Positions 1-8,552 of a DNA stretch of 10,059 nt are shown here, in pieces (within the stretch, counting starts at the first letter, position 1; each line of letters opens with the position of its first letter). The notes beneath the pieces were generated by a model. That model was not told where the DNA came from. It did no database searches and saw only the letters and a program-made list of their open reading frames with translations. Source of the DNA: a virus; UHGV virus genome UHGV-0160578; one strand, given 5' to 3'. A program made the position numbers and the translations under genes.

Positions 1-47
1 GGGGAAACTCTGCCCTTTATGACTGAATTCCGTCTCGGAAAAATGCC

Positions 48-743
48 TCAGGCCTGCGTCAGGTCGAGGCGCTGCTCAGTGGCGCTCAGTTTTTCCTGCA
101 CATGTTCAGCAACAGCGGTCACCGCTTCATGCACATCATTCAGACGGGCGTCATCGCTGGCCTGTTTGCGGCCAAAAATGGATTTCACCTTTTCGGTCAG
201 GGCGGTGAACACGGTTTCAGGCAGGTCTTCAAATTCCAGCTCAACAGGCGTTGCCACTGAAATCAGGTTTTCAGGGCTTAATTTGAAGCGGTTCAGGGGG
301 TTGTGTTTTGCCGTGCGGCAGAATTCCAGGTATTCCGTGCCGAGGCTTGCCGGGTCATCGGTGACGGCCAGACCCACCAGATAACATTTGCCGGTGTTGG
401 CAAAGTTCGGCTGAATTTCCATTGAGGTATAGACCTTCTGCGCGGCCTTGTTCATCGCGATAAGGTCATCGGTCGGGGTGATTTTCGCAAACAGCGCCCA
501 TTTGCCTTTCAGCGCCGAATCATCGTCAATCTTTTCGGCCTTCAGTTCGGCCACATCGCCATAACGTTTAAAAATACCGTCAGGCAGGATGCCGCGCAGA
601 TGCTCCAGGTTAATGCGGCAACCATAGACACGCGGGTCAAAGGTTTCGGCCATTTCCTGAATATCCTGCGCACTGATGACACGCCCGTCACAGGTGTCAC
701 CCTCAACGCCGATACGAAAGAATTTTGAGACTTTTTTTGCCAT
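48..743 (-). CDS. O: Capsid scaffolding protein (P2 gpO family)
   Basis: ORF 48..809 (-). N-terminus from the ATG at 743 (MAKKVSKFFRIGVEGDTCDGR...) matches my recollection of P2 gpO. AGGA lies about 10 nt upstream; the upstream in-frame ATG at 809 has GGAGG directly abutting it, so is an unlikely start. Position is divergent from P as in P2. 231 aa is shorter than the 284 aa I recall for P2 gpO. Confidence 0.82.
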   Translation of the reverse strand: MAKKVSKFFRIGVEGDTCDGRVISAQDIQEMAETFDPRVYGCRINLEHLRGILPDGIFKRYGDVAELKAEKIDDDSALKGKWALFAKITPTDDLIAMNKAAQKVYTSMEIQPNFANTGKCYLVGLAVTDDPASLGTEYLEFCRTAKHNPLNRFKLSPENLISVATPVELEFEDLPETVFTALTEKVKSIFGRKQASDDARLNDVHEAVTAVAEHVQEKLSATEQRLDLTQA

Positions 744-916
744 TGTCAGGAGTCCTGAATAGTGATTAGAGGAGTCACATGTCGGCATCAGTTTCCCGAC
801 GATACGCATCCTCCGCCATCAGTCCCGGATGGCTTATCACTGACACAACAGCACCTTAGCGAATCGCGGGGCGCGACTCAGTAGCCTTGCCGTGTATTCA
901 TCACGGCGAGGTATTC
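744..916. promoter_or_regulatory. Divergent late promoter region between O (leftward) and P (rightward), presumably Ogr/Delta-activated
   Basis: 173-bp intergenic between divergently oriented late genes. Contains dyads GTCGG-N10-CCGAC (781-800), GTGA-N9-TCAC (762-778), CGTG-N7-CACG (891-905) and palindrome TCAGGAgTCCTGA (746-758). No exact TGT-N12-ACA dyad found by eye. Confidence 0.4.
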
Positions 917-2689
917 ATGACCATCACCACAGACACCACTCTTTTACACGACCCGCGTCGTCAGGCGGCGCTGCTGTACTGGCAGGGGTTTTCCGTGCCG
1001 CAGATTGCCGCCATGTTGCAGATGAAACGCCCGACAGTGCAGAGCTGGAAACAGCGCGACGGCAGGGAAAGCGTTGCCCCCATCAGCCGTGTCGAAATGA
1101 GTCTGGAAGCGCGGCTGACCCAGCTCATCATCAAACCGCAGAAAACCGGCGGTGACTTCAAGGAAATTGACCTGCTGGGACGCCAGATTGAACGACTGGC
1201 ACGGGTAAACCGTTACAGCCAGACCGGCAACGAGGCAGACCTTAATCCGAACGTCGCTAACCGCAACAAAGGCGGGCGTCGCAAACCGAAAAAGAATTTT
1301 TTCAGTGACGAGGCCATCGAAAAGCTGGAGCAGATTTTCTTTGAGCAGTCTTTCGAATATCAGTTGCACTGGTATCGCGCCGGGCTTGAGCACCGCATCC
1401 GCGATATCCTGAAATCCCGCCAGATTGGTGCAACGTTTTATTTTTCCCGCGAGGCGCTGCTGCGCGCCCTGAAAACCGGTCATAACCAGATTTTTCTGTC
1501 GGCCAGTAAAACGCAGGCGTATGTGTTCCGCGAATACATCATCGCCTTTGCCCGGCTGGTTGACGTTGACCTGACCGGTGACCCGATTGTCCTGGGCAAT
1601 AACGGCGCAAAACTGATTTTTCTCGGCACCAACTCCAACACCGCACAGAGCCATAACGGTGACCTGTACGTCGACGAGATTTTCTGGATCCCGAATTTTC
1701 AGGTACTGCGTAAGGTGGCATCAGGTATGGCCTCACAGAGTCACCTGCGCTCGACCTATTTCTCCACCCCGTCCACGCTGGCGCACGACGCCTACGCGTT
1801 CTGGTCGGGTGAACTGTTCAACCGGGGACGCGCCAGCGCCGCCGAACGCGTGGAAATCGACGTCAGTCATAACGCCCTTGCCGGAGGTCTTCTCTGTGCG
1901 GACGGCCAGTGGCGGCAGATTGTCACCATTGAGGATGCCCTGAAAGGCGGCTGCACGCTGTTCGACATTGAGCAGCTCAAACGTGAAAACAGCGCCGACG
2001 ATTTTAAAAACCTGTTCATGTGTGAATTTGTTGACGACAAGGCGTCGGTGTTCCCGTTCGAGGAGCTGCAACGCTGCATGGTCGACACGCTGGAAGAATG
2101 GGAAGACTATGCGCCGTTTGCCGCAAATCCGTTCGGCTCCCGCCCGGTATGGATTGGTTACGACCCGTCACACCGTGGCGACAGCGCCGGATGCGTGGTA
2201 CTGGCACCGCCGGTGGTGGCCGGTGGCAAATTCAGAATACTTGAGCGTCACCAGTGGAAAGGCATGGACTTTGCCACCCAGGCTGAATCCATCCGCAAAC
2301 TCACCGAAAAATACAACGTCGAATACATCGGTATTGATGCCACCGGCCTCGGTGTCGGCGTGTTCCAGCTCGTGCGCTCGTTCTATCCCGCCGCGCGTGA
2401 TATCCGCTACACGCCGGAAATGAAAACCGCAATGGTGCTCAAGGCAAAAGACGTTATCCGCCGTGGCTGTCTGGAATATGACGTCAGCGCCACCGACATC
2501 ACCAGCTCGTTTATGGCTATCCGCAAGACCATGACCAGCAGCGGACGCAGCGCCACCTATGAGGCCAGCCGCAGCGAGGAAGCCAGCCACGCCGACCTCG
2601 CCTGGGCGACCATGCACGCCCTGTTAAATGAGCCACTCACCGCCGGTATCAGCACCCCGCTGACATCCACCATTCTGGAGTTTTACTGA
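917..2689 (+). CDS. P: Terminase large subunit / ATPase (P2 gpP family)
   Basis: ORF 887..2689. ATG at 917 preceded by GGCGAGG (904-910) gives 590 aa, the size of P2 gpP. N-terminus MTITTDTTLLHDPRRQAALLYWQGFSVPQIAAM as recalled for gpP. Stop overlaps Q start (TGATG). Confidence 0.9.
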   Translation: MTITTDTTLLHDPRRQAALLYWQGFSVPQIAAMLQMKRPTVQSWKQRDGRESVAPISRVEMSLEARLTQLIIKPQKTGGDFKEIDLLGRQIERLARVNRYSQTGNEADLNPNVANRNKGGRRKPKKNFFSDEAIEKLEQIFFEQSFEYQLHWYRAGLEHRIRDILKSRQIGATFYFSREALLRALKTGHNQIFLSASKTQAYVFREYIIAFARLVDVDLTGDPIVLGNNGAKLIFLGTNSNTAQSHNGDLYVDEIFWIPNFQVLRKVASGMASQSHLRSTYFSTPSTLAHDAYAFWSGELFNRGRASAAERVEIDVSHNALAGGLLCADGQWRQIVTIEDALKGGCTLFDIEQLKRENSADDFKNLFMCEFVDDKASVFPFEELQRCMVDTLEEWEDYAPFAANPFGSRPVWIGYDPSHRGDSAGCVVLAPPVVAGGKFRILERHQWKGMDFATQAESIRKLTEKYNVEYIGIDATGLGVGVFQLVRSFYPAARDIRYTPEMKTAMVLKAKDVIRRGCLEYDVSATDITSSFMAIRKTMTSSGRSATYEASRSEEASHADLAWATMHALLNEPLTAGISTPLTSTILEFY

Positions 2690-3723
2690 TGAGTAAGAAA
2701 AAAGGGAAAACACCGCAGCCAGCGGTGAAAACAATGACCGCCAGCGCCCCGAAAATGGAGGCATTCACCTTTGGTGAGCCGGTGCCGGTACTCGACCGCC
2801 GTGACATTCTGGATTACGTCGAGTGCATCAGTAACGGCAGATGGTATGAGCCACCGGTCAGCTTTACCGGTCTGGCGAAAAGCCTGCGTGCTGCCGTGCA
2901 TCACAGCTCACCGATTTACGTCAAACGTAATATTCTGGCTTCAACGTTTATCCCGCACCCGTGGCTTTCCCAGCAGGATTTCAGCCGTTTTGTGCTGGAT
3001 TTTCTGGTGTTCGGTAATGCGTTTCTGGAAAAGCGCTACAGCACCACCGGTAAGGTCATCAGACTGGAAACCTCACCGGCAAAATATACCCGCCGTGGTG
3101 TGGAAGAGGATGTTTACTGGTGGGTGCCGTCCTTTAACGAGCCGACACCTTTCGCGCCCGGCTCCGTGTTTCACCTGCTGGAGCCGGATATTAATCAGGA
3201 GCTGTACGGTCTGCCGGAATATCTCAGCGCCCTTAATTCTGCCTGGCTGAATGAGTCGGCCACGCTGTTCCGCCGCAAGTATTACGAAAATGGCGCACAT
3301 GCCGGATACATCATGTACGTCACCGATGCCGTGCAGGATCGCAACGATATCGAAATGCTTCGCGAAAACATGGTGAAGTCGAAAGGCCGCAACAACTTTA
3401 AAAACCTGTTTCTCTATGCCCCACAAGGGAAAGCCGACGGCATTAAAATTATCCCGCTCAGTGAAGTGGCAACGAAGGATGATTTTTTTAATATCAAAAA
3501 AGCCAGTGCCGCAGACCTGCTGGACGCGCACCGCATCCCCTTTCAGTTGATGGGCGGCAAGCCGGAGAACGTCGGGTCGCTGGGTGATATTGAGAAAGTG
3601 GCAAAGGTCTTTGTCCGCAATGAGCTTATCCCGTTACAGGACAGGATCCGCGAGATAAACGGCTGGCTCGGTCAGGAGGTCATCCGCTTTAAAAACTACT
3701 CACTGGACACTGACAACGGCTGA
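2689..3723 (+). CDS. Q: Portal protein (P2 gpQ family)
   Basis: 344-aa ORF, same length as P2 gpQ. Start ATG overlaps the P stop (TGATG at 2687-2691). Followed by a strong terminator and the cos site, as in P2. Confidence 0.9.
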   Translation: MSKKKGKTPQPAVKTMTASAPKMEAFTFGEPVPVLDRRDILDYVECISNGRWYEPPVSFTGLAKSLRAAVHHSSPIYVKRNILASTFIPHPWLSQQDFSRFVLDFLVFGNAFLEKRYSTTGKVIRLETSPAKYTRRGVEEDVYWWVPSFNEPTPFAPGSVFHLLEPDINQELYGLPEYLSALNSAWLNESATLFRRKYYENGAHAGYIMYVTDAVQDRNDIEMLRENMVKSKGRNNFKNLFLYAPQGKADGIKIIPLSEVATKDDFFNIKKASAADLLDAHRIPFQLMGGKPENVGSLGDIEKVAKVFVRNELIPLQDRIREINGWLGQEVIRFKNYSLDTDNG

Positions 3724-3727
3724 ACAT

Positions 3728-3750
3728 CGCCGCCTGCGGGCGGCTTTTTT
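3728..3750 (+). terminator. Rho-independent terminator downstream of Q
   Basis: GC stem GCCGCC (3729-3734) / GGCGGC (3739-3744) with loop TGCG, followed by TTTTTT (3745-3750), 5 nt after the Q stop codon. Confidence 0.7.
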
Positions 3751-3892
3751 ACACCCCGTCATCACGCCCTCACACGCTCACCACCGCACAAAACAGCCCG
3801 CAGACACACCAACGCCCCGGCAGGCCGACTAAACGCCATCACGACGCGCTCAGACGCTGAAAAAATAAAATCAGCACCACCGCCAGCGCGCA

Positions 3893-3911
3893 GTGCTTTC
3901 CCCGCCTCGCC
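3893..3911. other. cos: cos site (19-nt cohesive end core; reverse complement GGCGAGGCGGGGAAAGCAC)
   Basis: Plus strand GTGCTTTCCCCGCCTCGCC; its reverse complement matches the P2 cohesive-end sequence as I recall it. Location immediately downstream of Q/terminator is as expected. Confidence 0.6.
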
Positions 3912-4039
3912 TGCCCGCTTTATGGGTCGATTTTAATGCAAGTGCACGAACACACTGGAGACGCACCAGTACTGGCGGTGGTCACGTAGATCCGCCCCTT
4001 AAAAGCCATGCAGAATAATGCAACTATTGCGGGCGTCGG

Positions 4040-4459
4040 CTAATCATCTTCTAAAGGTGGAATTTTGATGCCACTAATTAGCAGTACTTTCCGGTATGCC
4101 TCAAAAATAATGTTGTGTGTTTTTTGTAAATCATCGAGCATTTTTTGCCGTCCTGCTGGGGTATCTTTGGCGAAATTATGAGCGCGAAAAAAATCATGTG
4201 CCAAGTAGTTTCGAGCTGATAGAGCCAGTTCTACATGTTGTAGCGTTTCATCATCTGCCACCCCTTTTTTACGCAATAAATTGCTTAGTCTGCCTAATGT
4301 TAACTTATCAAATTTTAAGAATTTTTCTTTTAATGTTGGAATGTCTTCGCCTTGCTTCATTTCATGTTCGATAAGGACATTAATCAGTTCAACTTCCAAC
4401 AATTGTGCAGCTTCTGAGGTGTAACCGAACTTCCAAAAGACTTCATCAAGCGTTGCCAT
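4040..4459 (-). CDS. Hypothetical 139-aa protein, AT-rich; possible HEPN-like (R-x4-H motif) accessory/defense candidate
   Basis: ORF 4040..4468 (-); first ATG at 4459 (MATLDEVFWKFG...). Sits in an approximately 36% GC island (about 4030-4500) inside an otherwise roughly 55% GC phage. Predicted helical; motif S81-A-R83-N-Y-L-A-H88-D-F. Function not recognised. Confidence 0.6.
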   Translation of the reverse strand: MATLDEVFWKFGYTSEAAQLLEVELINVLIEHEMKQGEDIPTLKEKFLKFDKLTLGRLSNLLRKKGVADDETLQHVELALSARNYLAHDFFRAHNFAKDTPAGRQKMLDDLQKTHNIIFEAYRKVLLISGIKIPPLEDD

Positions 4460-4596
4460 GTGTTCCACTCAAGATAAATGCAGGTTATGAAAAAGAAGAA
4501 TGATGATGGAAATTCCAGATGAAGTCTAACGCCTCGCTCCGCTCGTTGTTCAACCCCGCCAGCCCTGAAAACAAGTTTCACGACTGGCGGCGTTCT

Positions 4597-4803
4597 CTAT
4601 CGTCTGCGTGGTGGTGGCGTAACTCTTGATTGACCGATATGGTTAAACCGCCCGTAATTATCCCGGACTATTTCGGCACACACGACCAGCTCATCGGGCG
4701 TCAGATTTTCGTTGACCATAATCCGCTGTAAACGCTGAACAATAGCCATCAGCTTGATATTTTTAGTTTTATGGTGCGGTATCTCGCCTGGTATTCTGTG
4801 CAT
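4597..4803 (-). CDS. Hypothetical small protein (68 aa)
   Basis: ORF 4597..4815 (-). ATG at 4803 overlaps the stop of the upstream ASCH gene (TAATG), suggesting translational coupling. No recognisable domain; only ORF in this interval. Confidence 0.4.
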   Translation of the reverse strand: MHRIPGEIPHHKTKNIKLMAIVQRLQRIMVNENLTPDELVVCAEIVRDNYGRFNHIGQSRVTPPPRRR

Positions 4804-5255
4804 TATCCAAGCCACCCGTTTTGCTGTGCACGCTCCATCTGTTCATCTGAATAGTTCCATGCTCCATCCGTGGCAACCATTGCCCCGCCAGACATCCCCG
4901 TCTCTGGTTCATACATAACAGCAAGGCCGAGCTGATGCATAATTTCATGATTAATTCTGAATACCAGACCACGCTCACTAAGTTCTTTCCAGTTCACAAT
5001 CTCATATGCGCCTGTATTAAGCCGCTCAATACTTAGCAAGACATAATCTTCCAGCCAGTCTGACAGGTCAGTAACATCTGTTATCCGGGCTTCAACCTTT
5101 CGCCCCGTATACACACCCTGCACCCATTCATGCAAAATCAACGTGTCCCCGCGCTCATAATTACGGTCATTTTTCCGAAACTCTGCACGTTTATGTCCTT
5201 CCAGCACAAGGTCGAAATATTTTGCGTGCAGCTTTACCTCGTGAATTTTTGCCAT
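4803..5255 (-). CDS. ASCH / DUF3850-like domain protein (150 aa)
   Basis: ORF 4803..5291 (-). ATG at 5255 overlaps the A stop codon (TAATG); GGAGTGG RBS about 8 nt upstream. N-terminal signature HEVKL..KYFDLVLEGHKRAEFRKNDRNYERGDTLILHEW resembles DUF3850/ASCH (PUA-like fold). Lower GC (roughly 47%) than core genes. Confidence 0.72.
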   Translation of the reverse strand: MAKIHEVKLHAKYFDLVLEGHKRAEFRKNDRNYERGDTLILHEWVQGVYTGRKVEARITDVTDLSDWLEDYVLLSIERLNTGAYEIVNWKELSERGLVFRINHEIMHQLGLAVMYEPETGMSGGAMVATDGAWNYSDEQMERAQQNGWLG

Positions 5256-7540
5256 TATGTCCACTCCATTACTGTTGAGAATCCCGGCCACTCATCAGCG
5301 ACCGGATACGTGAATTTTTTCCCGTCGTAATTTACGGTTGCCCCACGCGCCAGCGCCTCAAGCTCCCATCGCTGAGGCCTGATACCGTTCTGAGCAAGGT
5401 CAACACGGATACGGGTAATTTGCATTCTTTCCGACCGGGTCAGTCTGGCCGATGGTGCAATTTCATGCGGTTTTAACGGGCTTCCGTTTCTTTGCTGACG
5501 ATTTGGTGTTCTCATGTCGTGTTTTAATGCGCCCCTGAGCGCCCTCACGACCTCCTGGTCATTCCATTCGATAACACCGTCATCAACCAGATTAAGCACT
5601 GCTGCGGCGTGTTCAGAAGGTGTGGGAGCCGGTAACGAAGCATCACCGCCGGTGAACTTTCCACAGTTATTGACAGGACTCCGAGGCGCGGCGATGCCGC
5701 TTTTTAAAGTCAAAGGCTCAACGACCGGAACTTTCGGCACAATGCGCCAGTCCGTCGTTCTGGTGATATGAATATGACGCGCGCCGAGATGCGGCGCGTA
5801 AATGCCGACCACTCTCTCGACTTCTTCCTCGTACTCGTTAACGTCATCCGACGGGCTACGGGCGACCCTGACAGTCTGACAATCGCGCGGGACATTTGCC
5901 CCACCCTGCGCGCTGATATACAACGCAAAATCACCACTGTCTGCGGCGGCGCGTGCAGCCTCGACGCGTTCGTCAAACTCATCAGCAATGCTGACGCCGC
6001 GAGGCAATTTGCGTAGTTCACGGTAAGCCCCCATTGTCGGCAGGCCAACCGTTTTAAATTGCGGAATGCGCCACGTTGACGCCCATGCGGTAACAGCCGC
6101 GGCAGTATCTTTCAGCGGCCTGCCAGTATCGTTATCGAGCTGACCATCCAGTGCATAGCCGTCGATGTTTTTTGAGATGTATTTCGCGATATATCCCGCA
6201 GCACCGCCCCGGTTAAGGTGTTTTGCCTGAAAACGGTTTCGCGCAGCGCCTCTTTCGTCACCATCCTCTTTGAGCGCATAGCGACGCATGATTTCGATAA
6301 TCTGGTTACGCTGGCGTGGATTACAAAAAAGCATCATATGCCAGTGCGGCGTTCCGTCGTGGTGTGGCTCGACGACACGCAAACCGTAGACCTGTAAATC
6401 ATTATCCTTGAATGCCGTGCGCATCAGGCTCCAGATACGGCAGAGATAACGCTGCGCATCCTTTGGATTAAATGCCTCATCGTTCCAGCCGTGATTAAGC
6501 TGAACGGTTTTACTTTCGCCTTTTCCGACCTGACGTGTCGGGTGATACTTTGACGGCGCGGTCAGCGTGATAAACATCCCCACATCACCCTCTGCGGCGG
6601 CGTAACGCTCAATACCGGCAATGGTGTTCATCAGCTCCATCCGGCGAATTTCAGGATTAGAAATACTGCCCATCACCTTACTGATAAGGTCGATGCGCTC
6701 GCCGGTTTCCCTGTTTTCAAGGTCACACGATTTAAGAAATTCCAGATTTGCCTGGCGGCGCGCACGCACATCACGAATGGCATGTTTACTGGCATAAGGA
6801 GAACGGTCTTTATTGACCTCCCCGACAGCAATCAGTAACGCCTCATGCCAGCGCATACGCTGGCCTTTAAGCTGATGAGTCCACCACTCATCGTTAAACA
6901 GACGGGCAATGGCAGAATATGCCTGCCTCGTGGTTATCTGTCCTTTACGGTATTTTTTCCAGTAGAGCGGGGAAATATTGAAAGCACGTGCAGCGCCAGC
7001 AACATGACCATACAGATGATCCTGCGCCTCATCCGTAAACAGCGATTCTTTTTCGCCATGCGCATCCACCCAGGCATCGCAGAGTTCCTCATACATCATG
7101 AAAAGCTGCGATGAGATACGGGCGGCAAACTTTTTCAGCTCCTTGTCATTCATCCCCGGCAGACGCGCATAATGGTCACGCTCTGCCAAAAACAGCAACG
7201 ACGCGTCGGTGTTCATTTCATGGCGCTGATTCACACGCTCAATGCGCGGCCATAAACGACGCTGAAAAGTGGATGTGAGGAAATAAAACCCGTGCACCGG
7301 GCTTTTATTGCGCCGGATGTAGTCATAGCGTGAAGTAAACAGCGAGCGCAAAAAGTAAGGCAGGCGGTTAATCGTGGATAAAACACCTTGCACCTGACGC
7401 ATCTCATCACGTGTAAGGGGTCTTTCGCGCCCGACAGCCTCGCGTGGCGCGTTCCATGCATAAGCACCGGCAAACGTCTTACCGGTGCCTGCGGCAAATG
7501 CTGACGGAGGGACAAAACGCCCGGAGGCTTTAACGGCCAT
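5255..7540 (-). CDS. A: Replication initiation protein, rolling-circle HUH endonuclease (P2 gpA family)
   Basis: ATG at 7540 gives 761 aa, the size of P2 gpA. N-terminus MAVKASGRFVPPSAF as recalled. HUH motif (PHWHMMLF) and paired tyrosines (GYIAKYISK) typical of rolling-circle initiators. The track's longer ORF uses a TTG at 7582. Confidence 0.9.
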   Translation of the reverse strand: MAVKASGRFVPPSAFAAGTGKTFAGAYAWNAPREAVGRERPLTRDEMRQVQGVLSTINRLPYFLRSLFTSRYDYIRRNKSPVHGFYFLTSTFQRRLWPRIERVNQRHEMNTDASLLFLAERDHYARLPGMNDKELKKFAARISSQLFMMYEELCDAWVDAHGEKESLFTDEAQDHLYGHVAGAARAFNISPLYWKKYRKGQITTRQAYSAIARLFNDEWWTHQLKGQRMRWHEALLIAVGEVNKDRSPYASKHAIRDVRARRQANLEFLKSCDLENRETGERIDLISKVMGSISNPEIRRMELMNTIAGIERYAAAEGDVGMFITLTAPSKYHPTRQVGKGESKTVQLNHGWNDEAFNPKDAQRYLCRIWSLMRTAFKDNDLQVYGLRVVEPHHDGTPHWHMMLFCNPRQRNQIIEIMRRYALKEDGDERGAARNRFQAKHLNRGGAAGYIAKYISKNIDGYALDGQLDNDTGRPLKDTAAAVTAWASTWRIPQFKTVGLPTMGAYRELRKLPRGVSIADEFDERVEAARAAADSGDFALYISAQGGANVPRDCQTVRVARSPSDDVNEYEEEVERVVGIYAPHLGARHIHITRTTDWRIVPKVPVVEPLTLKSGIAAPRSPVNNCGKFTGGDASLPAPTPSEHAAAVLNLVDDGVIEWNDQEVVRALRGALKHDMRTPNRQQRNGSPLKPHEIAPSARLTRSERMQITRIRVDLAQNGIRPQRWELEALARGATVNYDGKKFTYPVADEWPGFSTVMEWT
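5670..5689 (-). other. ori: Putative origin nick site (ori) for the A protein, internal to gene A
   Basis: Minus-strand sequence GCGCCTCGGAGTCCTGTCAA matches my recollection of the P2 ori nick-site region, which lies within the 3' part of gene A. From memory only, not verified. Confidence 0.45.
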
Positions 7541-7805
7541 ATGAGCCAAAAGCCTCTGAACAACGCTTGCTGAGTTGCTCAACCTGCGCGTTTAAATCAG
7601 CAAAAGACTTTGCGCTTCCGGTCAGAATATCGTGATGCATCAGGCCGGAAACGAGCTGGCTTAATTTCGGGTAATAACCAACCACCGCCAGCCATTCCTG
7701 ACCGGCGTTTTTACCGCTTTCAGCTCTCTTTTTCTCGTGGAGAATAAACTGAAAGCTGTCACTGGTAACGACATAACGTTCGCCAATTTCAATACGAATA
7801 CTCAT
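7530..7805 (-). CDS. Hypothetical early-operon protein (P2 orf83-like position), 91 aa
   Basis: ORF 7530..7805 (-). ATG overlaps the stop of the upstream TraR-like gene (ATGA); GGAG RBS upstream. Sits immediately upstream of A and overlaps it by 11 nt. Confidence 0.68.
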   Translation of the reverse strand: MSIRIEIGERYVVTSDSFQFILHEKKRAESGKNAGQEWLAVVGYYPKLSQLVSGLMHHDILTGSAKSFADLNAQVEQLSKRCSEAFGSYGR

Positions 7806-8026
7806 GCCGTTCTCCGGTAATGTTTGTTTTTTGCTTCAAAGACTGACTGACAGGAAACACAACGCGTGGCTGACGGATAAGCCGCACGACGGGCAGCAGG
7901 TATTGGCGCGTCACACTCTTCGCAAACCAGCGCAGAAGCACCGCAATGTTTTACCCTTGCCGCGTTAATCTGGCGCTCCAGTAATTCAGCCTGTTGTTCC
8001 TGAATAAAATCTACGTTGTCCGGCAT
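7802..8026 (-). CDS. TraR/DksA-family C4 zinc-finger protein (P2 orf82-like)
   Basis: 74 aa with CEEC...CVSC four-cysteine motif near the C-terminus, typical of TraR/DksA C4 zinc fingers. Start overlaps the upstream stop (TAATG); AAGGAA RBS. Confidence 0.78.
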   Translation of the reverse strand: MPDNVDFIQEQQAELLERQINAARVKHCGASALVCEECDAPIPAARRAAYPSATRCVSCQSVFEAKNKHYRRTA

Positions 8027-8328
8027 TACCAGTTCCTTTTGTCGTTAAGGTTTTTAAATTCATCAGCGCAATAGCTGGCAATTTCTGTCGTTAATTTCGT
8101 CAGTTCATCCACGGAGGAGATTTGCTTGTGAAATACAGCGCGTTTAACAAGTAAATTGACCACATCAGACAGGAGATTTAATTCGTTCTGATAAATCGCG
8201 ATAACAGACTCAGTTATTTCGCGTTTTTCTTTATCAAGACCAAGTTGAATAAGAGATAAATCGCCATTTTTCATAACGGCGATTTTTAAGGCGTTATTCA
8301 GTAATACAACTGAACGAGAACAGGACAT
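8026..8328 (-). CDS. Hypothetical 100-aa protein, AT-rich insert in early operon
   Basis: ORF 8026..8331 (-); ATG at 8328 overlaps the upstream stop (TGATG) with GGAGG RBS; its own stop overlaps the TraR-like start (TAATG). Roughly 37% GC against a roughly 55% GC background. No recognisable domain. Confidence 0.65.
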   Translation of the reverse strand: MSCSRSVVLLNNALKIAVMKNGDLSLIQLGLDKEKREITESVIAIYQNELNLLSDVVNLLVKRAVFHKQISSVDELTKLTTEIASYCADEFKNLNDKRNW

Positions 8329-8552
8329 CAAAGCACCTCCCCGCGAGACAATCCGATATTGTGAAATTTTTCCGACTCCTGACTGAGCAGCTCGACTATC
8401 TCCACGCGGGATAACTCCGCCTTTGTGATGTGGCGAATCATGGCGTCAAGATGAGAAGAAAAGCGCGTCGCTGCGTCGGCCTGTGCTTCGGTTCTGGCCT
8501 GTTGCAGCAGTAATGCGTATTTACCGCACTGATTTTCAGAAACTGTATGCAT
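8328..8552 (-). CDS. Hypothetical early-operon protein (P2 orf80-like position), 74 aa
   Basis: ORF with ATG at 8552 and GGAG RBS about 8 nt upstream; sits between B and the downstream early genes. Confidence 0.62.

What the first reader, a model, noticed from the sequence alone, without database searches (positions are those of the whole stretch)
3912..5255. Cos-proximal accessory locus replaces P2 old/tin with three unrelated genes
In P2 the interval between gene A and cos carries old and tin (anti-phage/exclusion genes), and this position is a known hotspot for defence cargo in P2-like prophages. Here the same interval holds an ASCH/DUF3850 gene, a 68-aa ORF and an AT-rich HEPN-like gene, none resembling old or tin. 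GC falls stepwise from the core (roughly 55%) to about 47% and then about 36% toward cos, consistent with acquired cargo. This is the most likely place for an uncharacterised defence or exclusion function.
Basis: partly seen in the sequence, partly recalled or inferred. Interest (0 to 1): 0.75.

Follow-up and report, generated by a model that had tools for sequence, protein, structure and literature searches.

The report
Small HEPN-like gene beside P2 cos
In this P2-like E. coli prophage only one of the three genes between gene A and cos is swapped-in cargo: a rare, untested 139-residue protein with an RNase-type (HEPN-like) motif that may be a one-gene anti-phage effector, while the other two belong to the phage's replication operon.

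Summary
Three minus-strand ORFs lie between the 19-nt cos site (3893-3911) and gene A, and GC steps from 53% to 47% to 38%.

- **ASCH/DUF3850 gene (4803-5255).** It is the full-length form of P2's own orf91. P2's copy is cut off at codon 75 by the old-tin cassette.
- **68-aa ORF (4597-4803).** It is a homologue of PSP3 gp37.
- **Both genes.** They overlap the preceding stop codon (TAATG), occur together in 391 of 5426 E. coli genomes, and end at a conserved hairpin. I read them as the tail of the early operon, not as replacements for old/tin.
- **True cargo.** Only about 486 bp (4040-4525) is cargo: one 139-aa gene, present in 31 of 5426 E. coli genomes and always the last gene before cos.

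The 139-aa protein belongs to an unnamed family of at least 1444 clusters in many phyla.
- It has no conserved partner gene.
- An RNxxxH motif is nearly invariant.
- The model is a confident helical bundle.
- Matches to HEPN families are all below threshold.
- Relatives often sit near defence genes.

It is most likely a standalone HEPN-like RNase acting in phage exclusion, but this is untested. Rousset 2022 already lists this arrangement as "hypothetical". I rate it a new member of a known kind, of moderate interest.

The parts
3874..3889 (-). Terminator-like hairpin with a T-run on the minus strand, just beyond cos. It could end ORF139 or early-operon transcripts once the genome is circular or integrated.
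   Evidence: Consensus scan. Its function is inferred only.
3893..3911 (.). cos cohesive-end 19-mer.
   Evidence: Identical to the annotated cosR of P2.
3912..4039 (.). Conserved cos flank with ATGCA/TGCAT repeats. It is probably part of the packaging signal and forms the cos-side edge of the cargo slot.
   Evidence: ATGCA motifs are invariant between the window, P2 and Wphi. The flank is conserved in 15 of 15 loci that carry ORF139.
4040..4459 (-). ORF139, a standalone HEPN-like protein with RNYLAH at residues 83-88. It is the only true variable cargo in this interval.
4500..4528 (-). Candidate weak promoter of ORF139. The -35-like hexamer TAGACT is at 4528-4523, followed by 17 nt and the -10-like hexamer CATCAT at 4505-4500.
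   Evidence: TAGAYT is conserved in 15 of 15 loci, with a -10-like hexamer 16-17 nt downstream (my reading of the alignment). It falls below the threshold of the consensus scan. Inferred.
4552..4594 (-). Conserved hairpin directly after the orf68 stop codon. It marks the likely end of the early operon, as a terminator or 3' stabiliser.
   Evidence: Inverted repeat I2. 17 pairs are predicted, 6 of them with compensatory changes across 8 loci.
4597..4803 (-). orf68, a small conserved protein (PSP3 gp37 homologue, phrog_11386). Its ATG overlaps the ASCH stop codon (TAATG).
4803..5255 (-). ASCH/DUF3850 + DUF7415 protein, the full-length orthologue of P2 orf91. Its ATG overlaps the gene A stop codon (TAATG).
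5255..7582 (-). Replication gene A (Phage_GPA), the conserved flank on this side.
   Evidence: Pfam E-value 1.2e-123. 98% identical to E. coli P2-like prophages.

Best explanation
The interval has two unrelated parts.

**1. Window 4552-5255: the tail of the early (replication) operon.**
- It encodes a PUA-like ASCH/DUF3850-DUF7415 protein, the full-length form of P2 orf91, and a 68-aa protein.
- Each gene starts on the stop codon of the gene before it, so both are made together with gene A during lytic growth.
- A conserved hairpin closes this unit.

**2. Window 4040-4525: a minimal one-gene 'moron' in the old/tin slot.** It consists of a weak promoter-like element and ORF139, and ORF139's stop codon abuts the cos packaging flank.

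**What ORF139 most likely is.**
- It is most likely a standalone HEPN-type, metal-independent RNase that works as a homodimer. The catalytic R83, N84 and H88 sit at the end of the third core helix.
- Expressed at a low level from the prophage, it would cut host or phage RNA when a competing phage infects. That would abort or exclude the infection, as other single-protein HEPN Abi effectors do.

**Shown versus inferred.**
- Shown: the gene anatomy, conservation, distribution, motif, predicted fold topology and absence of a partner gene.
- Inferred: HEPN membership, RNase activity, the promoter, expression in the lysogen and any defence phenotype.
For: **Anatomy.**
- TAATG overlaps at A/ASCH and ASCH/orf68.
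- The hairpin shows 6 covarying pairs.
- ASCH is P2 orf91. ASCH+orf68 occur together in 391 E. coli genomes and many Peduovirus phages.

**ORF139 as cargo.**
- It is in 31 of 5426 E. coli genomes, against 1722 genomes that carry the flanks.
- It occurs with different neighbours: HNH; DUF2971 plus two hypotheticals; DinI; tumAB.
- It is always about 128 nt from cos, in 15 of 15 loci.

**ORF139 as a protein.**
- dN/dS is 0.08-0.40.
- The family has 1444 clusters at 50% identity with E<=1e-3.
- RNxxxH is present in 122 of 129 full-length relatives. R83, N84 and H88 are at least 90% conserved in 50 diverse members.
- The AF2 model has pLDDT 91.9 and five helices, with the motif in the C-terminal third of the penultimate long helix. 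That placement matches the HEPN description in PMC3710099.
- The family consensus's three best Pfam hits are all HEPN families: MAE_28990 at 0.021, DUF4145 at 0.067 and Swt1 at 0.11. Eleven further weak HEPN-family hits occur among members.
- One relative is a tandem dyad, and one is fused to a HepT-like HEPN domain that scores above Pfam's cut-off.

**Context.**
- There is no conserved partner gene in 47 distant loci.
- Neighbours there include McrBC, type I RM, CBASS, HamA, DrmA, DolB, PD-Lambda-3, AbiJ, Ymh, Shedu and DUF4145.
- The gene's GC is below that of its flanks in 31 of 32 distant loci.

**Prior expectation.**
- About 40% of tested P2-slot systems defend against phage.
- 6 of 21 new E. 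coli systems are HEPN-like, and 4 of the 21 sit in this slot.
Against: - No HEPN match reaches a curated or significant threshold.
- Foldseek finds nothing significant in the PDB or BFVD libraries.
- hhalign against two single HEPN proteins gave nothing.
- There is no hit in PADLOC or NCBIfam.
- No strong sigma-70 promoter is present. The gene points the same way as the early operon, unlike old/tin, so it might be expressed only in lytic growth.
- A partner-less RNase toxin needs some control that I have not identified.
- The defence association of the distant loci was not counted locus by locus.
Confidence: 0.5

Rival explanations
1. One reading: all three genes (ASCH, orf68, ORF139) are acquired cargo that together replace old/tin and may act as one defence locus.
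For: - All three lie between A and cos and have lower GC than A.
- Rousset 2022 Table S5A lists them together as one arrangement, 'DUF3850/ASCH + hypothetical + hypothetical'.
Against: - P2 itself has orf91 next to old and tin.
- ASCH+orf68 occur in 391 E. coli genomes, nearly all without ORF139.
- ORF139 occurs without them in K_EC180, SaT040 and Kosakonia.
- The TAATG coupling to A and the intervening conserved hairpin separate the two units.
- The GC of ASCH and orf68 equals that of conserved early genes.
Confidence: 0.05
2. ORF139 is the toxin of an addiction or toxin-antitoxin module whose antitoxin is not a neighbouring protein. Control might come from its own leader RNA, an antisense RNA, or a host factor. 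It would serve mainly to stabilise the prophage rather than to exclude other phages.
For: - Small HEPN toxins are classic TA components (PMC3710099).
- In the window and in L001 a 22-nt leader segment pairs with codons 1-8 and encloses the SD and AUG (MFE -22 kcal/mol).
- The promoter is weak, the gene is AT-rich, and relatives occur on plasmids and ICEs.
Against: - There is no conserved adjacent ORF of 60 aa or more in 47 loci.
- There is no MNT partner.
- Rfam finds no RNA family here.
- The leader-ORF pairing partner is not conserved in other alleles.
Confidence: 0.15
3. ORF139 serves the phage itself. It might be an anti-defence or host-takeover factor, an anti-satellite (P4) factor, or an RNA-processing or packaging accessory, expressed in the lytic cycle by read-through from the early operon. 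It need not be an RNase at all.
For: - It points the same way as the early operon, whereas old/tin point the opposite way and have their own mapped promoter.
- It has an invariant position as the last gene before cos, in 15 of 15 loci, across both the Peduovirus and Eganvirus lineages.
- HEPN similarity never reaches significance.
Against: - It is present in only about 2% of E. coli P2-like prophages, so it is not needed for packaging.
- Relatives in 47 non-phage chromosomal loci of many phyla keep the RNxxxH motif.
- A conserved hairpin lies between the early operon and ORF139, and a conserved -35-like element follows that hairpin.
Confidence: 0.2
4. ORF139 is a decaying or chance ORF in AT-rich spacer DNA next to cos and has no function.
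For: - Its GC is among the lowest in the window (only the orf81-like gene is as low).
- There is no database annotation.
Against: - dN/dS is 0.08-0.40 with synonymous sites saturated.
- The 139-aa length is conserved.
- There are 1444 related clusters.
- The AF2 model is confident.
Confidence: 0.01

Closest known systems
P2-like gpA-gpQ (cos-proximal) defence hotspot (Rousset et al. 2022, PMC9122126; Odegrip 2006; Vassallo 2022)
   Same: - The flanks are the same: replication gene A, cos and portal Q.
- The content is variable.
- This exact gene arrangement appears in their Table S5A for E. coli 06-3462.
   Different: - The cargo here is about 0.5 kb, one gene, against a mean of 3.2 kb.
- The gene was listed only as 'hypothetical' and was not tested.
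- The A-proximal two genes are operon tail rather than cargo.
- cos splits the hotspot into two slots.
Single-protein HEPN abortive-infection effectors (AbiV, AbiU2, AbiD/F, AbiJ, ApeA; Anantharaman 2013, PMC3710099)
   Same: - It has a predicted all-helical HEPN-like core with R[N]xxxH.
- It has no partner gene.
- It is carried on mobile elements and next to RM or Abi genes.
- It is AT-rich.
   Different: - There is no significant sequence match to any of these families in Pfam or PADLOC.
- It is much smaller than ApeA or AbiJ and has no N-terminal sensor domain.
- Its activity is untested.
HEPN-MNT (HepT/MntA) type II/VII toxin-antitoxin systems
   Same: - The HEPN protein is of similar size, about 130-140 aa.
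- One relative is fused to a HepT-like domain.
   Different: - There is no adjacent MNT or any other conserved neighbour.
- There is no Pfam HepT or DUF86 match for ORF139 itself.
P2 old and tin
   Same: ORF139 occupies the same genomic slot next to cos.
   Different: - There is no sequence or domain similarity.
- The orientation is opposite.
- old/tin have a mapped own promoter at the cos side.
P2 orf91 / PSP3 gp37-gp38
   Same: - ASCH is orf91: 96% identical over residues 1-74.
- orf68 is gp37: 72% identical.
- ORF139 is gp38: 66% identical, in the same position.
   Different: - P2 orf91 lacks the DUF7415 half.
- PSP3 has tumA/tumB instead of ASCH.
- None of these genes has a known function.

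Membership tests
HEPN superfamily | Rx4-6H motif with a polar residue (N, D or H) after the R, conserved across the family. | tested here: met
   RNYLAH is at residues 83-88. R83, N84 and H88 are invariant in 19 close homologues and at least 90% conserved in 50 diverse members. RNxxxH is present in 122 of 129 full-length relatives.
HEPN superfamily | All-alpha four-helix core with an insert between helices 2 and 3, and the motif at the end of helix 3. | tested here: met
   The AF2 model (pLDDT 91.9) has helices at 4-35, 40-51, 55-65, 70-94 and 101-128, with the motif in the C-terminal third of helix 70-94. This was compared with the description in PMC3710099. It rests on a model, not a solved structure.
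HEPN superfamily | Significant profile or sequence similarity to an established HEPN family. | tested here: not met
   All matches are below threshold. The consensus scores MAE_28990 E=0.021 (15.5 bits against a cut-off of 26.8), DUF4145 0.067 and Swt1 0.11. The best member hit is RiboL-PSP at 0.0025. PDB hmmsearch found no HEPN. hhalign against two single HEPN proteins found nothing.
HEPN superfamily | Significant structural similarity to solved HEPN domains. | tested here: inconclusive
   [not shown]
HEPN superfamily | Dimeric composite active site and metal-independent RNase activity. | not testable with these tools
   Only indirect evidence exists: a tandem-dyad relative (P0134) and a fusion to a HepT-like domain (P0063). 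The AF2 model of the dyad failed, with pLDDT 53.
HEPN-MNT toxin-antitoxin | An adjacent minimal nucleotidyltransferase antitoxin gene. | tested here: not met
   No protein family recurs next to the gene in 47 loci. The neighbours in P2-like loci vary.
Known defence systems (PADLOC-DB 2.0.0, including old, tin, Abi, PD-T4/Lambda/T7, Rst and PDC) | A match to a system's protein model. | tested here: not met
   ORF139 and orf68 have no hit at E<=1. ASCH has only a chance-level hit (PDC-M11B, E=0.034).
P2 gpA-gpQ hotspot cargo | Lies between conserved A and cos/Q flanks and is replaced by other genes in related prophages. | tested here: met
   This holds for ORF139. The flanks are in 1722 E. coli genomes, ORF139-like genes in 31, and the exact allele in 1. 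For ASCH+orf68 it is only partly met: they are in 391 genomes, coupled to A and present in P2 itself.
ASCH / DUF3850 (PUA-like) | Pfam domain match above the gathering score. | tested here: met
   DUF3850 scores 64.1 bits (cut-off 22.9), ASCH 42.5 (21.2) and DUF7415 53.8 (27).

The most novel reading that the evidence does not exclude
ORF139 would found an unnamed, widespread family of partner-less minimal HEPN RNases (about 140-160 aa, at least 1444 clusters at 50% identity, many phyla). These would give single-gene anti-phage immunity. In P2/186-type phages the gene would be held as the terminal gene next to cos and kept quiet by weak transcription or a leader-ORF hairpin until infection. 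That would make it one of the smallest self-contained defence effectors known.
Probability: 0.3. Interest if true: 0.6.

Novelty: new member of a known kind. Interest (0 to 1): 0.4.

Why it matters
The P2 cos-proximal hotspot is a proven source of new anti-phage systems. About a fifth of P2-like elements still carry only unannotated genes there (PMC13586616).

- **A small, testable candidate.** The work isolates a 486-bp, one-gene candidate from the conserved operon tail around it and gives point mutants to try (R83A, H88A). It also links the gene to a large unannotated family that has no Pfam, NCBIfam or PADLOC model.
- **If it defends.** It would add a very small standalone HEPN effector to the defence catalogue and a new model for annotation tools.
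- **A correction to the P2 reference picture.** orf91 is truncated in P2 itself, and the 'hotspot' begins only after the early-operon hairpin.

Tried and rejected
**Searches that found nothing significant.**
- Foldseek of the ORF139 model against PDB and BFVD.
- The afdb50 library was not available.
- PDB sequence and profile searches with A1 and A2 found no HEPN.
- hhalign of the family profile against a DUF4145 protein and an annotated HEPN protein from fetched loci gave probability below 3%. One sequence per side gives low power.
- Rfam on 3600-5400 gave no hit.
- PADLOC and NCBIfam gave nothing meaningful for any of the three proteins; the only hit was a chance-level PADLOC match (PDC-M11B, E=0.034) for the ASCH protein.
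- No paper mentions WP_000212183 in its main text.

**Analyses that failed.**
- AF2 of the tandem-dyad relative P0134 without an alignment gave pLDDT 53 and is unusable.
- Context look-ups for three distant representatives returned only short metagenome contigs.
A1 worked instead.

**Ideas considered and dropped.**
- A conserved partner or antitoxin gene: all-against-all BLAST of neighbouring ORFs in 47 loci found only the gene itself and its antisense shadow ORFs.
- A conserved leader-ORF hairpin that hides the AUG: it is strong in the window and L001, but the pairing partner differs or is absent in other alleles.
- GC content as proof of cargo: conserved early genes are equally AT-rich.
- orf68 as the antitoxin of ORF139: each occurs without the other.
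Full report
**What the window is.** The window is a P2-like (Peduovirus-type) prophage of the E. coli kind, read in reverse relative to the P2 map.
- O is at 48-809 on the minus strand.
- Terminase P is at 887-2689 on the plus strand, and portal Q at 2689-3723 on the plus strand.
- cos follows, then three small minus-strand ORFs.
- Replication gene A is at 5255-7582 on the minus strand, followed by the early genes up to cox and C.
- The A-to-C half is 98.4% identical to E. coli prophages.
- Bases 3893-3911 are identical to the annotated P2 cosR 19-mer. The finding's start (3912) is therefore the first base after cos. Its end (5255) is the base shared by the gene A stop codon and the ASCH start codon.

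**Checking the observation.** The three ORFs exist as described.
- The ASCH/DUF3850 protein (4803-5255, 150 aa) also has a C-terminal DUF7415 domain. All three Pfam matches are above their curated cut-offs.
- The 68-aa ORF is at 4597-4803.
- The AT-rich gene is 139 aa from the ATG at 4459. Every homologue starts MATLD or MVTLD, and PGAP annotates 139 aa in E. coli 06-3462.
- GC is 53.3% for A, 46.8% and 47.3% for ASCH and orf68, and 37.9% (GC3 32%) for ORF139.
- The step is real but weak evidence for acquisition. Conserved early genes in the same window have 36.9% (orf81-like), 44.3% (B) and 43.8% (cox).

**ASCH and orf68 are not replacements for old/tin.**
- P2 is laid out as A, orf91 (DUF3850), tin, old, cos.
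- The window's ASCH protein is 96% identical to P2 Orf91 over residues 1-74, after which P2 diverges. In P2 the old-tin cassette ends inside orf91 and has removed the DUF7415 half.
- The same DNA (window 4526-5400) is 96-98% identical in Wphi, P22H4, P24A7b, 9W, S164 and other phages.
- ASCH+orf68 together are found in 391 of 5426 complete E. coli genomes, 345 of them with at least 80% coverage.
- orf68 is 72% identical to PSP3 gp37.
- The A stop codon and ASCH ATG share the sequence TAATG, as do the ASCH stop codon and orf68 ATG. This is typical translational coupling.
- Directly after the orf68 stop codon lies a hairpin (4552-4594). It recurs after orf68 or after tum/DinI in 11 of 15 related loci. 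It has 17 predicted pairs, 6 with compensatory changes in 8 sequences.
- I read 4552-5255 as the tail of the early replication operon.
- The function of the two proteins is unknown. DUF3850 is a PUA-like, probably RNA-binding, fold that is enriched in phages (bioRxiv 10.1101/2025.10.10.680097).

**The real cargo is one gene.**
- Homology to other P2-like phages breaks at 4525/4526 on the A side.
- On the cos side, ATGCA repeats up to about 4030 are shared with P2 and Wphi. They are conserved in all loci that carry ORF139, so the cos flank reaches the ORF139 stop codon.
- The variable insert is thus about 486 bp (4040-4525). Rousset reports a mean of 3.2 kb for this hotspot.
- ORF139-like DNA is in 31 of 5426 E. 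coli genomes, and this allele in only one (06-3462, 96.9%). The flanks are in 1722 genomes.
- Among isolated phages only PSP3 has it: gp38, 66% identical, and again the last gene before cos.
- In other prophages it sits behind different genes: an HNH endonuclease in K_EC180, DUF2971 plus two hypotheticals in SaT040, and DinI in Kosakonia.
- In all 15 aligned loci its stop codon is about 128 nt from cos. In Kosakonia (L006) and L010 the extra cargo, a GmrSD-type gene and a 528-aa gene, lies on the far side of cos, between cos and Q.
- ORF139 is therefore an independent, cos-linked, single-gene module.

**Expression signals (inferred).**
- Just after the hairpin, TAGAYT is conserved in 15 of 15 loci. 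It is followed at 16-17 nt by CATCAT, CATTAT or TTTAAT. In the window these are 4528-4523 and 4505-4500.
- This is a plausible weak sigma-70 promoter, but it is below the threshold of the consensus scan.
- A terminator-like hairpin on the minus strand lies just beyond cos at 3889-3874.
- In the window and in L001 the leader can pair with codons 1-8 and enclose the SD and AUG. The partner is not conserved in other alleles, so I do not rely on this.

**What ORF139 is.**
- *Real gene.* Pairwise dN/dS is 0.08-0.40 with synonymous sites saturated between lineages.
- *Close homologues.* There are 20 clusters in Enterobacteriaceae, none with an informative name. The protein matches PHROG 12893, 'unknown function'. 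It has no Pfam, NCBIfam or PADLOC family.
- *Wider family.* An exhaustive profile search finds 1444 clusters at 50% identity with E<=1e-3, and 262 with E<=1e-10. Most are 140-170 aa. A scan of species-representative genomes finds relatives in Acidobacteriota, Proteobacteria, Verrucomicrobiota, Nitrospirota, Actinomycetota and others.
- *Motif.* The conserved core is ALxxRNxLxHxFxRxH. R83, N84 and H88 are invariant or at least 90% conserved, and RNxxxH is present in 122 of 129 full-length relatives. This is the HEPN Rx4-6H motif with the typical polar residue after R (PMC3710099).
- *Predicted fold.* The AF2 model is confident (pLDDT 91.9). It shows a long helix, two short helices and two long helices, with the motif near the end of the penultimate helix. 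That fits the HEPN description of H1-H2, an insert, then H3-H4 with the motif at the end of H3.
- *Sequence similarity.* No match reaches significance. The three best Pfam hits of the family consensus are all HEPN families (MAE_28990, DUF4145, Swt1), and members give eleven more weak HEPN hits. All are below the cut-offs.
- *Domain architecture.* One relative is a tandem dyad of the domain. Another is fused to a HepT-like HEPN domain that scores above Pfam's cut-off. Both fit a fold that works as a dimer.
- *My estimate.* I put HEPN superfamily membership at about 0.75.

**Context outside P2.**
- In 47 distant loci no neighbouring protein family recurs, so there is no MNT or other protein antitoxin.
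- The nearest large neighbours are a mixture of housekeeping genes and defence genes. The defence genes include McrBC/AAA_5, a type I methylase, a CBASS cyclase with a phospholipase, HamA, DrmA, DolB, PD-Lambda-3_B, AbiJ and Ymh.
- A metagenomic relative lies beside Shedu (SduA_C), DUF4365 and DUF4145 genes.
- Plasmid copies lie among IS elements, helicases, a HEPN protein, a GIY-YIG nuclease and VapB.
- I could not count defence hits locus by locus, so the enrichment is only suggestive.
- The gene has lower GC than its surroundings in 31 of 32 distant loci, by 7 points on average. This is typical of mobile cargo.

**Most likely mechanism.**
- ORF139 is a partner-less, minimal HEPN-type RNase carried as a one-gene moron at the right end of the phage genome. 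Made at a low level in the lysogen, it would cut RNA on superinfection and exclude or abort the competitor.
- The priors are favourable. Three of eight extra P2-slot systems plus the AC1 locus defended in Rousset 2022. Six of eight unknown P4 loci defended in the 2026 follow-up. Six of 21 new E. coli systems were HEPN-like, and four of the 21 sat in this slot.
- The main weakness is that expression in the lysogen and any trigger or control are unknown. The gene is also co-oriented with the early operon, so a lytic-cycle role (anti-defence, anti-satellite or RNA processing) or a hidden TA arrangement remains possible.

**Comparison with what is known, and novelty.**
- The hotspot and its variability are established (Odegrip 2006, Rousset 2022, Vassallo 2022 and the 2026 NAR study).
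- This exact arrangement (WP_032213322 + WP_000554767 + WP_000212183) is already listed, as 'DUF3850/ASCH + hypothetical + hypothetical', in Rousset's Table S5A. It was not tested.
- ORF139 is not a member of any named defence family tested here.
- It is best called a new, uncharacterised member of a known kind: a HEPN-like effector in a known hotspot.
- Interest is moderate at 0.4. It is a clean, small, testable candidate from a large unannotated family, but it would not surprise a specialist. The headline claim that three genes replace old/tin does not hold.

Noticed in passing
window 4552-4594 (minus strand): A conserved hairpin lies right after the orf68 stop codon. It is also found after tum/DinI in PSP3 and Kosakonia. 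It has 17 pairs, 6 with compensatory changes, and no U-tract. It is probably the end of the early operon.
   Followed up: yes
window 4500-4528 (minus strand): TAGACT is conserved in 15 of 15 loci that carry ORF139, with a -10-like hexamer (CATCAT, CATTAT or TTTAAT) 16-17 nt downstream. This is a candidate weak promoter missed by the consensus scan.
   Followed up: partly
window 4438-4459 and 4506-4527: A 22-nt inverted repeat lets the leader pair with ORF139 codons 1-8 and enclose the SD and AUG (MFE -22 kcal/mol in the window and in L001). The pairing partner is not conserved in other alleles.
   Followed up: partly
L003 (P2) 2817-3146 compared with window 4803-5255: P2 Orf91 is a truncated chimera. 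It is identical to the window's ASCH protein up to residue 74 and then unrelated, so the old-tin cassette boundary lies inside orf91 and the reference phage is the derived state.
   Followed up: yes
L006 5631-7409; L010 6862-8448: cos splits the gpA-gpQ hotspot into two cargo slots. In Kosakonia a GmrSD-type gene, and in L010 a 528-aa gene, lie between cos and portal Q, while ORF139 stays on the A side of cos.
   Followed up: partly
window 3876-3886 and 3972-3982: A perfect 11-nt inverted repeat (ACCACCGCCAG / CTGGCGGTGGT) brackets cos. The heptamer CCGCCAG/CTGGCGG also forms the stem of the 4552-4594 hairpin.
   Followed up: no
window 4005-4030: ATGCA/TGCAT repeats next to the ORF139 stop codon are invariant in P2 and Wphi and duplicated in L081 and L085. 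They are probably part of the cos packaging signal.
   Followed up: partly
window 8026-8331: The conserved early gene (orf81-like, DUF5405) has only 36.9% GC, as low as ORF139. Low GC in this phage is therefore not a reliable mark of cargo.
   Followed up: no
P0134 (331 aa) and P0063 (279 aa), relatives: P0134 is a tandem dyad of the ORF139-like domain with two RNxLAH motifs. P0063 is an ORF139-like domain fused to a HepT-like HEPN domain (PF01934, 25.1 bits against a cut-off of 23.5).
   Followed up: partly
L004 (Wphi) 3662-4177: Wphi's annotated gp91 (93 aa) and gp92 (64 aa) do not match the window's reading frames, although the DNA is 96% identical. The C-terminal part of gp92 (residues 47-55 of 64) matches the start of orf68 (MHRIPGEIP). 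This suggests frameshifts or an annotation artefact in the old record.
   Followed up: partly
L034 6390-7420: A Nitrospirota MAG carries two tandem paralogues of the ORF139-like gene.
   Followed up: no
[not shown]
   Followed up: no
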